From contig CM097885.1 in the NCBI GenBank assembly GCA_044892525.1, forward strand, positions 4,776,001-4,840,000: a stretch of 64,000 bases of DNA, written 5' to 3'. The notes beneath the pieces were generated by a model. That model was not told the DNA's origin. It saw only the letters and a program-made list of their open reading frames with translations, and did no database searches. Of this stretch, positions 14,407 through 61,049 are shown piece after piece. Numbering within the stretch: the first letter of the stretch is position 1; each line of letters opens with the position of its first letter. This stretch comes from Schmidtea polychroa. Lineage: Eukaryota. The position numbers and the translations under genes are program-made.

Positions 14407-15037
14407 TTTATTTATTATAAAATGACCTCAAAGAGTTCCTCTACTGAAGAATCTTTGCAAGAATTAATAAATTCAAATAAAAATAAATCAATAGTAATTG
14501 ATGGTAAAAAATATTTTATTGGAAAACATGTAAAAGAACAAGTTAGAGCGAAGCTGAAGAAGGCGGCATTCTTCCATTAGCTGCTTTAATACCTGCAATC
14601 ATTGCTGGTTTATCAGGTGCTGCTGGAATAGCTGGAGGAATTGCAACTACAGTTCAAAAAGCTAAAGAATCTCAAAAGACAGACCTAGAAAAAGAAAAAC
14701 TACAAACTGAAATCGATTCAATGAAGAAGGTAGGGCAAGCTAAGGGAAAAGGCCTCTATCTTAATCCATATGAGGGGACTCTGTCTGAAGGTCAAAAGTC
14801 TCAGGGGACTCTGTCCAAGGGAAAGGGTCTCTATCTTGATCCTTATAAAGGTAGAGGTTTAAATGATTTTTTAAAAAATCAAATTTCTACATCTGAATCT
14901 TTATCTTCAAAAGATAAAGAAGATTTAAAAAAAATATGTAAATCTTTAAAGAATGGATGCAGTAGTGGGATGTGTCACCACTGGCACATGTCACCTCTGG
15001 GGGGGTAAACGAAAAAATTTTTCAAGGTCAAATTTTA

Positions 15038-15460
15038 AACAAAGACATATGACTCATCAAGGTCATTGAAACAAAGACCATGACTCATCTTATGACGCAT
15101 CAAGGTCATTGAAACAAAGACCATGACTCATCCTATGAATCATCAAGGTCATTGAAACAAAGACCGTGACTCATCGAGGTCATTGAAACAAAGACCGTGA
15201 CCCATCGAGGTCATTGGATGACTCGCCAAGGTCATTGGATGACTCACCAAGGTCATTGAAACAAAGACCATGACTCATTCAAGGTCATTAGATAACTCAT
15301 CAAGGTCATTGAAACAAAGACCATGACTCATTCAAGGTCAATGGATGACTCATCAAGATCATATTTTTAAGGTCAAAGTCATATTTTTAAGGCCAAGGTC
15401 ATATTTTTAAGGTCAATGTCATATTTTTAAGGTCAAGGTCATATTTTTAAAGTCAAACGT
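15038..15460 (+). repeat. Tandem array of ~30-40 bp units containing TGACTCA and TCAAGGTCA
   Basis: Unit 'tcaaggtcattgaaacaaagaccatgactca' repeated with variants, followed by 'aaggtcatatttttaaggtc' units. Confidence 0.9.
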
Positions 15461-57800: not shown

Positions 57801-58459
57801 TTCGCAATGAGTTTAATTGTAAAATTAATATCGTTGCAGGTGATACAGATTCTTTTTTCCTCGAAGTCATTAACTGCAAACTTAAGGTTCTTTTACCTGC
57901 AATGGTTCGAGATAATTTATTGGATACTTCCAATTACAATAGTTGTCATTCCTTATATAGTAAGAACCTTGATTCAGTCATTGGAAAGTTCAAAGACGAG
58001 AATAAAGGTCTTAAATATAAGGAGTGGGTTTTTCTTAGACCTAAATGTTATAGCTTGTTGGGTGATGAGGAAACAAAAAAGGCTAAAGGTGTAACATTGA
58101 AAGGTAGTGACATAAAACATCAGTCATACCTGGATTGTTATAACACTAACCAGATTTTTTCGGTTCCTCAGACTAAAATAACAAGCAAAAATCATCAAAT
58201 TTTTACAATTAAAAACACAAAAATAGCACTAACTAACAAAGATGACAAAAGGGTTTGGGTGGGGCAAAATACTAGTCTTGCATATGGGCATGTAAGATTA
58301 AGTGAATTAAATATTGGAGAAAATGTTGGAGAAATTGTTGCAGAAAATGTTTCAGAAAATGTTGGAGAAAATGATGGAGAAGATGAGGAAGAATTAAATG
58401 AAGATTTTGGAGAAGATGACATCGATATCGATGACGTTATTTTGTCCGATGAGGACTAA
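54875..58459 (+). CDS. Protein-primed family B DNA polymerase (right-arm copy); true start probably upstream at 54675
   Basis: Identical to the left copy except two residues noticed (NDRL/NDGL, GYTL/GYIL); catalytic motifs intact. Confidence 0.95.
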   Translation: MPFVESNDGLVVESHDGLVVESQVGLDNISLDSWDGLNIIQIGGNVPIIQKDLRGTHQILSLNTSDLNIKEIIFPEQLIKKLRDIINELGSVKIQFGITIEFEKDGEIKVNNISNYAKPLTASFFDEGIRELNEKISNITELGSSWIIKKKITEIHFTITKISRLSRLSGRSFIELPTYLKNKYCLINIKNTDDSCFLYSILAILKYDEVSSYARNRRSSYNLSELIYNPLDLPMKLKDIRKFEAKNPGLIINVFSYDNNKQLIDNYVLKHPHLDIIHRSKVLNGTVINLLLLNKGNNFHYVAISNLNRLLNCGINTTCPTCIRSLWCHRCLNGFNNRNALEKHEILCKRNQLGTTLYTFPQNKFLQFTDWSKTVTPPFVVYADFEAILPSDNDHFQRHMPISAGLLLVNNFDGSKSYQQFIGLDCVESFLSAIEDIALNKVLPFYYKMGRKPMIKLTKIEQQQFINSTVCYLCLKSIVDPVRDHDHFTGKYLGAACSTCNVNRKINKILPIVFHNLKGYDMHHILKYGLNKFKNWNLGCIPITTQKFISLIAHLGKISLRFIDSYQFVNDSLAKAVKTLNSLPFTNSAFSGTIVSEKGIFPYNFATSLDILQTTYELPPIWEGVTELEYEKAQEIWVETNCVTLLDYMMIYLKLDCFLLADFFHQFRLKSIAHNRLEPLNYFGIPGMSWSSALMSLNEPIELITENEMFSFYEGGIRGGLTFVNKHYVKTDENTELLYIDINNLYGWALSQSLPCGEFCWVLDGFDKIMDECRNLNLESLSYGYILEVDLVIPSELHDKLDDFPVAAEKMKPAGSKVEKLLLTHLPKSNYVIHWRLLKLYLELGVKVTRVNRGVRFKQSPIFKKYIDTNTELRSKSVNSLDKNYYKLLNNSLYGKTVENLKRRMNLRLCTTAGKLVKYSSKPTFKKSIKIADNLIAALLNSDSICLDRPSYIGQSVLDLSKLRMYELQYKDLESFRNEFNCKINIVAGDTDSFFLEVINCKLKVLLPAMVRDNLLDTSNYNSCHSLYSKNLDSVIGKFKDENKGLKYKEWVFLRPKCYSLLGDEETKKAKGVTLKGSDIKHQSYLDCYNTNQIFSVPQTKITSKNHQIFTIKNTKIALTNKDDKRVWVGQNTSLAYGHVRLSELNIGENVGEIVAENVSENVGENDGEDEEELNEDFGEDDIDIDDVILSDED

Positions 58460-61049
58460 TTTTATTGAATAAATTTTATATCTTTACATTTGTTATTTGG
58501 TAAATTTTTATGTTTGTTATGTGTCTAGTTCATTTTTATGTGTTTAGTTAATGTTTATATGTTTCGTTATGTGTCTAGTTATTTTAATGTGTTTAGTTAA
58601 TTTTTTATGTGTTGTATAGTATTTGGTTGATATATTATTAATATTATTTTTATTATTATTATTATTATTATTATTATTATTATTATTATTATTATTATTA
58701 TTATTATTATTATTTCATAAAAATTTTCATTAAAAATTATCTTAAAAATTATTCTATTAAAATTTCCATTAAAAATTACCATTGAAAATTATTCATAAAA
58801 ATTTCTATTAAAAATTACTTAAAAAATAATTCATTAAAATTTCCATTAAAAAATTTCAATTCTCAAACACCTTCTATTTTTGTTAATAAATTTAAAAATC
58901 TTACTTTAATTTACTTATTACATTACTTTAATTTACTTATTTAAAAATTATTACTTTAATTTACTTATTTAACTTTAATTTAAATTTTTTTTTTACCATT
59001 GATTATTTAATTTTAAAATTTGGACCTTAATTAACTTTAATTTAATTTTTAGAACCATAATTTACTTTAATTTTAAAATTTTTGACCATTATTTACTGTA
59101 ATTTAAATTTTAGAACCATTATTTACTGTAATTTAAAATATTTGGACCATTATTTACTTTAATTTAATTTTTTAGAACCATTATTTACTTTAATTTAAAA
59201 ATTTGGATCATAATTTACTTTAATTTAAATTTTTGGACTGTAATTCAAAAATTTTGACCATAATTTACTTTAATTTAATTTTTAAGAACCATAATTTACT
59301 TTAATTTAATTTTTAAGAACCATAATTTACTTTAATTTAAAAATTTGGACCATAATTTACTGTAATTTAATTTTTTAGAACCATTATTTACTTTAATTGA
59401 AAAATCTTAGCCCATAATTTACTTATTTAGACCATAATTTACTTTATTTCAAAAATAAATCTGAACCTTGATTTACTTAAATTTTTAGACCCATCATTTA
59501 CTTTATTTTTAAATTTTAGACCCATAATTTACTTTATTTTAAAAATTTACTATGCGTTTTTTAATGTAAACCACCTTTTCTATTGAAATTCTCATGACCA
59601 AGAAGATCCCCTCACTATAGTGTGAAAAATCCATGCTTTTTTATTGAAGACTACCTTTTTCTATTGAAATTCTCAGGACCAAGGAGACCCACCCAAATAA
59701 TATTTATCCTTGGCTTGTTTATTGAAAAAAAAAAAAAAAAAAAAAAAATTTGTATTTAAAATCCCAGAAAACATTGGGCATTACGGCAACAATTATGTAA
59801 TCAAAAAATGTCTACGGAAAAAGTTATGCAATCAAAAGTTTGCAACATTTTTTACCCCCCCCCCCCTATTGCTGCCGCGGGCCACTAACTCCCTACTGAC
59901 GGGGGACTTTTATATTTTATAAAATAGAGTTTCTTAACGGAGAATCTTTAATTTCTTTCGTGACGACGGGAATATATAAAAGTGGTTGTTGGAGGCATAC
60001 GTAAAAATGTTTATGTAGAAAATCCATAATTATTACTGTATAATATTATTTATTTTCTAGCATTACACACACAAACGTTTGGATTGCATATTGTAAATTG
60101 AACTCGTTTGAAATCGACTAATTGAAATTATCATTTACATATAACAGAAGCTGGAAACAGGAATAATTTTTTAAATTAAAAATAAAATCTCTCAAAATAA
60201 ATATGTTGGGATTTTATAAATTGATGAGAGATAAAAATGAAATGCACAAAGATAAAGTTATATTCAAAACAATTAAAAATCAATATTTCTCAGGGAAACA
60301 AAATGAGTAGGTAGCAAAACAAACACAGATATAATAATTTCAAATCGATTGGCGATTCTTGGGCTGTGTTATTTTAAAAGTTAATTAATTGATTGAAATT
60401 TTAATTAGGTCATAAATCATATCAGTTAGAAAAACAAAATTTTCAAGTTTGTCAAGCTTAAGTAAAAATAATTTAATTTGTTTTAATTCTCAGTCTTTAA
60501 AGGCTGATAAAATTTAATTATTTTTTAAGAATTTGGAAGATCACAAGATGAGAAATTGGTTTGATCATATGAAAGGAGCAGAATAGTCAGTATAGTTGTC
60601 AGTATAATTGTCAAAGAAAATTTTTTGCAAGTATAAAGTTAAAGAATAAAAGGTGTGCTAGACAAAGTTAAAGAGGAAAGTATTGTTGGTTGATTATTAT
60701 ATCAGATCAGAATGGTATTAGTTATTTGAGGAGGTTAATACTTGTGGTCATAGTGTTAATAGTGCTGTGTTGTGCATTTTCTTTTAATAAACATAGAGAA
60801 TTCTCGATTTCAGATTACGAGCTATTTTCCTGCCGATGCCAAAAAAATGTTTTTGAGTCAAAACTTTAAACCCTTAGTCCTCTGGCAGTTTCGTTCCCCT
60901 GAATAAATAAATGAGTTACAGTATTATAGCTACAAAATCCAAAGATCTATCATAAAAAAATACTTTCCCGCATTATTTACCACATCAGTTACTCTTAGCA
61001 GTAGATGTAAAATAATTTTAAAAATCAAATATTTTTAAATTACAATTTA

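What the first reader, a model, noticed from the sequence alone, without database searches (positions are those of the whole stretch)
14961..59897. Candidate multipartite system: one-gene palindromic segments sharing ends and cis motifs
Seen: two palindromes with unrelated cargo (polymerase; RING) both start AGTAG, make 6-bp TSDs and are filled with short repeat arrays. They share a motif: GATGAGTCATTGTCTTTGTT (53091-53110) matches the reverse complement of the RING element's repeat unit AACAAAGACCATGACTCATC at 19/20 positions. CCGCTGGA(A/C)CAA also occurs at ~2655, ~22278 and ~52821. Inference: these may be segments of a divided Polinton-derived genome. This predicts further palindromes that carry integrase, capsid or ATPase genes elsewhere in the genome.
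Basis: inference. Interest (0 to 1): 0.85.

Follow-up and report, generated by a model that had tools for sequence, protein, structure and literature searches.

The report
Palindromic satellites of Maverick virus-like elements
The two mirror-shaped insertions are not pieces of a divided virus genome but fold-back offshoots of intact Maverick (Polinton) virus-like elements that fill this genome, and one kind keeps two copies of its DNA polymerase gene in hundreds of insertions, apparently copying itself while borrowing integrase and capsid from its relatives.

Summary
In detail: two inverted-repeat elements (14961-23696 with RING genes; 46493-59897 with PolB on both arms), each with a 6-bp target duplication, share the named motifs beyond chance.

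The divided-genome reading does not. One-piece Mavericks occur with the RING element's ends (L029/L030) and, from coordinates plus one deleted copy, with the PolB element's polymerase. The 20-base motif also sits in complete elements' ends. Inverted integrase, ATPase or capsid pairs are rare and fold at varying points.

What is real: helper-dependent palindromic satellites. The PolB type has roughly 430 insertions (extrapolated), arms about tenfold closer to each other than to another copy, and dN/dS 0.10 between two palindromic copies. It shares non-coding cores with RING, gene-less and other-polymerase palindromes. This window's polymerase is broken at its 5' end.

Likely mechanism (inferred): template switching in protein-primed replication, with integration in trans. 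The scan earlier noted gene-less Maverick palindromes here and in other genomes, not polymerase-bearing ones. New variant of a known kind.

The parts
14961..23696 (.). Element A: imperfect palindromic satellite with A-type Maverick ends, inserted into an unrelated Maverick
   Evidence: 416 A-type ends genome-wide, control 0
14955..14960 (+). 6-bp target duplication of A (second copy 23697-23702)
15048..15362 (+).
17794..17941 (+). 3' fragment of RING-1, 97% identical to the RING gene next to the right end of the complete element L030 (mirror copy 21486-21633)
18381..18707 (+). RING-2 open frame (zf-C3HC4_3, E 7.8e-10); lacks about 500 bp present in L020 and L024
20463..20789 (-). Mirror copy of RING-2
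18837..20333 (.). Single-copy part of A; arm sequence that is doubled in longer family members, so not a dedicated loop
17296..17393 (+). About 90-bp module repeated before each gene in A (also near 18294-18383, 19775-19871 and mirrors), shared with complete elements and gene-less satellites; promoter role inferred, not shown
22278..22289 (+).
46493..59897 (.). Element B: 13.4-kb PolB palindrome with B-type Maverick ends
   Evidence: 617 ends of this type
46487..46492 (+). 6-bp target duplication of B (second copy 59898-59903)
47969..51595 (-). Protein-primed PolB open frame, left arm (1208 aa stop to stop)
54833..58459 (+). PolB open frame, right arm; exonuclease and polymerase motifs present; the 5' leader seen in sister copies is absent and the frame shifts in an A-rich stretch near 54800-54830, on both arms
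51800..52641 (.). Inner non-coding arm module with 144-bp repeats (mirror 53787-54630); its junction to the centre recurs 414 times, also in a palindrome of a different polymerase
52642..53786 (.). Central 1.1-kb mini-element bounded by about 45-bp inverted ends of a third Maverick family (C type); proposed fold-back point
53091..53110 (+).
11660..32352 (.). Unrelated conventional Maverick (718-bp TIRs, integrase, A32 ATPase, PolB about 26% identical to B) that is the insertion target of A; not part of the system

Best explanation
Both elements are helper-dependent palindromic satellites (fold-back derivatives) of Maverick/Polinton families whose complete one-piece genomes are abundant in the same host. 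SHOWN: Maverick ends and 6-bp duplications; complete relatives; hundreds of dispersed copies; arms usually closer within than between insertions; fold points that vary; shared non-coding cores under different cargo. INFERRED mechanism: (1) during protein-primed strand-displacement replication the polymerase switches template, or the displaced strand folds at a short internal inverted repeat (in B the ends of the 1.1-kb central mini-element), and copies one arm back; (2) the product has the same end twice, hence two replication origins and two integrase sites; (3) each replication round through a giant panhandle re-copies arm from arm; (4) integrase, and probably ATPase and capsid, come in trans from complete elements; (5) satellites capture new arms from helpers, giving RING, PolB-B, PolB-G or gene-less versions on common cores. 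The PolB type, where intact, probably supplies its own replicase, so it works like a self-replicating satellite. The copy in this window is defective and was moved in trans.
For: Complete element with A's ends: ATPase, integrase, capsid (DJR-like cluster, score 0.98), protease, PolB and RING-1 on 18.8 kb with a target duplication. RING-2: 9 of 43 unpaired sites lie 6.5-11 kb behind a capsid site. B parent: 11 of 36 unpaired versus 0 of 64 paired B-PolB sites have the B ATPase upstream; L044 has B ends, ATPase, integrase, capsid and a protease fused to the B-PolB tail. B arms differ by 5 substitutions in about 6150 bp, against 45 in 4687 to copy L025. Divergent PolB pairs recur in other lineages: 5 among the first 100 C sites, 2 among 100 A sites, 7 among 22 G sites. 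Palindromic lineages do not group on a quick tree, at least 3 changes. dN/dS 0.10 (19 synonymous, 7 non-synonymous) between two palindromic copies; 21 of the 44 best hits have open frames of 1300 aa or more. The same 1208-aa truncated frame occurs in 8 of 44 hits at 5 loci. A 650-bp core is shared by RING, B-PolB and gene-less elements and lies in 0 of 27 complete-element spans, 1.6 expected. Template switching yields subgenomic molecules in phage phi29 (PMC4974454, passage).
Against: No complete B-type element was read end to end; at the 6 candidate loci on C1 below 28 Mb the exact B end pattern is missing where expected (by eye). 36 of 52 capsid sites lacked a listed PolB motif 4.5-9 kb downstream; a second motif explained some but PolB-less families are not excluded. 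B palindrome arms outnumber B ATPase sites (1354 versus 284). Purifying selection may have acted in complete parents before capture. Some RING-2 copies from different insertions are as close as arms are (0-6 differences). The 0 of 27 result is weak given 1.6 expected. The tree is a quick one on about 300 aa; G and H are labelled palindromic from coordinates only. No free linear or hairpin form and no transcript was shown.
Confidence: 0.75

Rival explanations
1. Incipient, facultative bipartition: self-replicating PolB palindromes and PolB-less integrase/capsid derivatives with the same ends complement each other alongside, and increasingly instead of, the complete parent.
For: L044 is such a PolB-less partner with B ends and its own target duplication; 3 of 5 B-ATPase sites without PolB have a B end about 2 kb upstream (by eye); 8 of 19 B-ATPase sites have no listed B-PolB; 5 convergent B-ATPase pairs in the first 100 sites against about 0.1 expected; palindromes outnumber the parent.
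Against: L044's junction occurs once, its integrase has an in-frame stop and its protease is cut short; the convergent pairs have five different spacings (5.7-12.8 kb) and were not read; complete elements remain available as helpers.
Confidence: 0.14
2. One reading: obligate multipartite genome, one gene per palindromic segment.
For: Shared motifs beyond chance; common cores under different cargo; RING and PolB palindromes are both high-copy.
Against: One-piece genomes present; A and B ends share only five bases; capsid sites almost never paired (2 pairs in 102; 1 in 100, 0.56 expected); the 20-mer is part of complete elements' ends; six contig lengths recur in both the PolB and capsid homologue lists, suggesting one-piece relatives elsewhere (inference).
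Confidence: 0.04
3. Palindromes formed in the chromosome after insertion, by host double-strand-break repair at short inverted repeats, and are passive.
For: Short inverted repeats flank the B centre; fold points vary.
Against: Direct 6-bp duplications flank both ends, and one centre junction recurs about 200 times at dispersed sites, 44 pairs in the first 100 hits: the palindrome itself is what inserts.
Confidence: 0.04
4. Assembly artefact from fold-back reads.
For: Arms are more than 99% identical.
Against: Asymmetric centres, arm-specific indels, target duplications, different flanks at hundreds of loci.
Confidence: 0.02

Closest known systems
Maverick/Polinton elements (PMC8097293 and PMC10748475, passages read)
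   Same: AGT-type end motif, 6-bp target duplication, protein-primed PolB; the helpers carry integrase, A32 ATPase, protease and a DJR-like capsid; polymerase exchange between otherwise similar elements is reported for nematode Polintons and seen here (capsids 97% identical, PolBs 67%).
   Different: Reported TIRs are 46-1500 bp; here the inverted arms are 3.9-6.2 kb and contain the only genes. No integrase, ATPase or capsid. Copy numbers (over 2000 integrase sites) far exceed the vertebrate maximum of 287 in that survey.
Butterfly polintons with gene-containing TIRs (bioRxiv 10.1101/2025.02.07.637071, section 12 read)
   Same: Inverted repeats that duplicate core genes (hexon, adenain); polB-less variants that still move.
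   Different: Those are about 2-kb TIRs on otherwise full elements; here the arms are nearly the whole element and the doubled gene is the polymerase or a RING gene.
Subgenomic template-switch products of phage phi29 (PMC4974454, passage); snap-back and copy-back defective genomes (recalled)
   Same: Protein-primed replicon giving sub-genomic molecules from one end; helper dependence.
   Different: Here they are integrated, heritable, dispersed in hundreds of copies and partly under purifying selection. The passage does not call the phi29 molecules palindromic; that is recalled.
Gene-less palindromic non-autonomous Polintons (recalled from Repbase, zebrafish; Kapitonov and Jurka 2006 not held; scan notes e1-7786796, e1-7786359, e1-7879908)
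   Same: 13-15 kb palindromes with Maverick ends.
   Different: These carry no genes; B carries a polymerase that is intact in many copies.
Alphasatellites of plant ssDNA viruses (PMC9049520, search listing only; details recalled)
   Same: Works like one: satellite with its own replicase, dependent on a helper for the rest.
   Different: Circular ssDNA with rolling-circle Rep; no homology, not a member.

Membership tests
Autonomous Maverick/Polinton | AGT-type terminal motif and 6-bp target duplication | tested here: met
   feature from PMC8097293
Autonomous Maverick/Polinton | Protein-primed PolB | tested here: met
   Met for B only: homologues carry PF03175, motifs present, 5' end broken in this copy. 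Absent from A.
Autonomous Maverick/Polinton | Retroviral-type integrase | tested here: not met
   No such frame in A or B
Autonomous Maverick/Polinton | ATPase, protease and jelly-roll capsid genes | tested here: not met
   Absent from A and B; present in relatives L029/L030, L038, L044
Autonomous Maverick/Polinton | TIRs of about 100-1500 bp around a unique gene region | tested here: not met
   Arms of 3.9 and 6.2 kb, centres 1.5 and 1.1 kb
Multipartite or segmented virus | No undivided genome; essential genes only on separate segments | tested here: not met
Multipartite or segmented virus | A stable segment for each essential function (integrase, capsid, ATPase) | tested here: not met
   Rare pairs with variable spacing; L044 junction unique. 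Listings cover only the first 100 sites per motif.
Multipartite or segmented virus | Conserved cis signals shared by segments | tested here: inconclusive
   Shared motifs are real but also occur on complete elements; ends agree in only five bases
Multipartite or segmented virus | Co-replication and packaging of all segments | not testable with these tools
   No particle or free-DNA data
Fold-back (snap-back) defective or satellite genome | Inverted duplication of one terminal region of a helper | tested here: met
   B: PolB-proximal end shared with L044; A: end and RING-1 tail match L030, inner part is recombinant
Fold-back (snap-back) defective or satellite genome | Coexisting helper and repeated origin at variable fold points | tested here: met
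Fold-back (snap-back) defective or satellite genome | Free hairpin or panhandle replicative form | not testable with these tools
   Only contigs were available; arm identity is indirect support
Self-replicating satellite (functional analogy) | Own replicase kept functional | tested here: inconclusive
   dN/dS 0.10-0.24 between copies, 21 of 44 long open frames; selection may predate capture; activity not shown

The most novel reading that the evidence does not exclude
A Maverick family caught in the act of splitting: PolB-only palindromes are a self-replicating, selected satellite lineage that already outnumbers its parent, hosts interchangeable polymerase arms on a common core, and is complemented by PolB-less integrase/capsid derivatives with the same ends, i.e. 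an incipient bipartite dsDNA virus in an animal germ line.
Probability: 0.15. Interest if true: 0.8.

Novelty: new variant of a known kind. Interest (0 to 1): 0.5.

Why it matters
Maverick replication has been modelled, not observed (recalled). Hundreds of young palindromes whose arms are re-copied at insertion, and which fold at mappable points, are a genomic record of the predicted strand-displacement and panhandle intermediates and make the model testable. A polymerase-keeping satellite that rides on helper integrase shows how helper-satellite networks, and possibly segmented genomes, can arise in this virus group. In practice, 13-15 kb near-perfect palindromes in hundreds of copies are likely sources of chromosome breakage and of double-stranded RNA (inference), and pipelines that demand PolB plus integrase would miss or misfile them.

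Tried and rejected
Free (extrachromosomal) form: small contigs C702 and C882 hold PolB palindromes, but with about 2.2 and 7.6 kb of flank, so they are integrated copies.

Expression: no RNA holder listed; four runs laid were contigs only, two merely guessed to be RNA, and gave no usable start, end or splice information.

Related loci in viral contigs: 13 pattern matches, 0 confirmed. Solved structures for the PolB: 0 matches. Rfam at gathering score on the window and 8 loci: 0. Single-sequence fold of the capsid: pLDDT 34, unusable, no fold search run. Pfam gave no capsid family for the 406-aa frame; the label rests on the Atlas match.

I first read B as having no complete parent (0 of 50 B sites had an A/C-type capsid or integrase upstream); a degenerate ATPase scan overturned this. 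I first read L044 as a partner family; its junction is unique. The copy at C1:4751609 is not an independent insertion but part of a 39.35-kb duplication with the same flanks. The careful tree and the one-clade test did not finish. The number of B-type capsid sites remains uncounted.

Paper searches (listings and abstract starts only) showed no description of polymerase-bearing palindromic Maverick satellites; subscription papers, Repbase reports and supplements were not seen and may hold one.
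Full report
OBSERVATION. Element A (14961-23696) and element B (46493-59897) are real, each with a direct 6-bp duplication. B has arms of 6196 bp at 99.2% with a PolB frame on each, pointing outward. A is a ragged palindrome with RING-2 on both arms pointing inward and sits inside an unrelated conventional Maverick (11660-32352; PolB about 26% identical to B).

ELEMENT A HAS COMPLETE RELATIVES. Its end occurs 416 times. Of 18 elements fetched by that end, 1 is a complete one-piece Maverick (L029/L030, 18.8 kb, own target duplication) with TBP, A32 ATPase, integrase, capsid, protease, PolB and RING-1. 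One (L027/L028) is a deleted one-piece element with part of the capsid, protease and PolB. Twelve carry the RING-2 anchor and no intact integrase, ATPase or capsid frame in the part read (several were read only in part); L013 holds a 650-bp integrase fragment. The 20-mer occurs 3 times in each end of the complete element, so it is family terminal sequence, not a segment tag. RING-2 has 1559 sites; the first 100 include 21 convergent pairs, and 9 of 43 unpaired sites lie 6.5-11 kb behind a capsid site. A's centre is doubled in L020-L023, so fold points vary.

ELEMENT B IS A LARGE FAMILY WITH A PARENT. A B-PolB 22-mer has 1354 sites; 64 of the first 100 form divergent pairs under 12 kb, against 0.47 pairs expected. 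That extrapolates to about 430 palindromes. Of 33 paired ends among the first 100 listed, 24 span 12.2-14.7 kb. A B-specific ATPase variant has 284 sites and lies 8-14 kb upstream of 11 of 36 unpaired but 0 of 64 paired polymerase sites. L044, an 8152-bp element with B ends and its own duplication, carries TBP, ATPase, integrase, capsid (67% identical to the A capsid) and a protease fused to the last residues of B-PolB: a deletion product of a complete B genome. Against this, no complete B element was read in full, and the exact B end pattern is missing at the 6 candidate loci below 28 Mb (by eye).

Integrase sites number 2182 and capsid sites 1689; 49 of the first 100 integrase sites have a capsid site 2.3-2.7 kb downstream. 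Inverted pairs under 12 kb: integrase 3 per 100 sites (0.72 expected), capsid 1 (0.56 expected), and 2 wider pairs among 102 protein hits. B-ATPase shows 5 pairs at 5.7-12.8 kb (about 0.1 expected). Such fold-backs therefore probably exist, but at varying spacings, and none was read. L044's junction occurs once and its integrase has an in-frame stop. Unresolved: 36 of 52 capsid sites had no listed PolB motif nearby; a second motif revealed further polymerase lineages that account for some.

SIGNS OF THE MECHANISM. B's arms differ by 5 substitutions in about 6150 bp (leaving out the innermost 45 bp), against 45 in 4687 to copy L025. RING-2 arms differ by 0-5 bases within an element and 0-45 between elements, 12-45 for this window's copy once its tandem duplicate is set aside. 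B's centre is a 1.1-kb mini-element with the ends of a third family (1495 sites; a 16.7-kb member, 9 kb read, has PolB, protease and capsid in one piece). The arm-to-centre junction recurs 414 times, 44 pairs in the first 100, and lies inside 11 of 32 B pairs; one pair sits inside a palindrome of polymerase G, about 60% identical to B. A second 650-bp core joins RING, B-PolB and gene-less elements (65-84%; 3557 sites) and fell in 0 of 27 complete spans, 1.6 expected. On a quick tree of 67 rows (none dropped; careful search unfinished) B is sister to A/C/I (82), H to J (96) and G groups with metagenome proteins (98): palindromes arose repeatedly.

IS THE POLYMERASE ALIVE? 21 of the 44 best hits have open frames of 1300 aa or more. 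dN/dS is 0.10 between this copy and palindrome L025 and 0.14-0.24 in four other comparisons, though selection may predate capture. This copy lacks the 5' leader and splice acceptor seen in L025, L031 and L032, and its frame shifts near 54800-54830 on both arms. The same 1208-aa frame occurs at 5 loci, so defective versions are moved in trans.

MODEL. Template switch or intrastrand folding during protein-primed replication gives a molecule with one end twice; panhandle replication keeps the arms alike; helper integrase inserts it; arm capture from helpers changes the cargo. Doubling also brings a 6-7 kb arm towards the roughly 17-kb size of intact Mavericks (PMC8097293, passage), which may aid packaging. 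These steps are inferred; no free form or transcript was seen.

COMPARISON AND VERDICT. Neither element is an autonomous Maverick, and the set fails the test for a multipartite genome. It works like snap-back defective genomes, and B like a replicase-bearing satellite. Papers seen: passages of PMC8097293, PMC10748475, PMC4974454, PMC6431247, PMC11414722, PMC8532177 and PMC10680173; passages and section 12 of bioRxiv 10.1101/2025.02.07.637071; no supplements. Nine searches listed no account of polymerase-bearing palindromes; gene-less ones are recalled from Repbase and noted by this scan. New variant of a known kind; interest 0.5; incipient bipartition 0.15.

Noticed in passing
window 11660-32352: Conventional Maverick with PLA2-like frame, integrase, ATPase, protease-like and penton-like frames (the last two labels recalled, no Pfam hit) and PolB, but no capsid-like frame of 100 aa or more; 26009-27103 is unrelated to the family capsid. 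One terminal base differs between its ends.
   Followed up: partly
window 7517-8932: Intron-containing RING, zf-TRAF, MATH (TRAF-like) gene lying between B-like repeat arrays (5980-6919) and a PolB remnant (9994-10569), downstream of a B-type end at 2638; possibly captured cargo.
   Followed up: no
window 1-23700 and G000:C1 about 39.35 kb upstream: Tandem duplication: element A, the ATPase and two B-type ends recur 39,352-39,357 bp upstream; that copy has three RING-2 units.
   Followed up: partly
L029:4206-4667 and L044:1739-2152: Complete elements carry a TBP homologue (E 1e-14, 6e-16) head to head with the ATPase, and a weak Bcl-2-like frame (E 0.006).
   Followed up: partly
L029:6370-6505 and L044:3980-4020: The integrase frame is interrupted at the same place in two families by a stretch with intron-like borders, expanded by a trinucleotide repeat in L029.
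   Followed up: no
L029/L030 versus L038: Capsids 97% identical but polymerases 67% identical and ends different: polymerase and terminus appear to be exchanged together as a module.
   Followed up: partly
genome-wide: Extreme Maverick load: 4729 polymerase motif sites and 4699 ATPase motif sites.
   Followed up: no
G000:C2:108062228-108075788 and C3:125370793-125385374: Divergent capsid pairs 11-12 kb apart, implying palindromes of about 30 kb holding most of the genome twice; not read.
   Followed up: no
G000:C1:979622-1011296: The shared satellite core recurs in a tandem array with a period of about 4.4-4.6 kb.
   Followed up: no
window 38982-43162, 919-2484, 5585-5896: Gypsy-like retrotransposon frames with stops, a non-LTR reverse transcriptase remnant and a hAT remnant; host-like genes at 33696-34223 (proteasome alpha), 35079-36485 (MFS) and 61778-63445 (ABC-F-like).
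   Followed up: no
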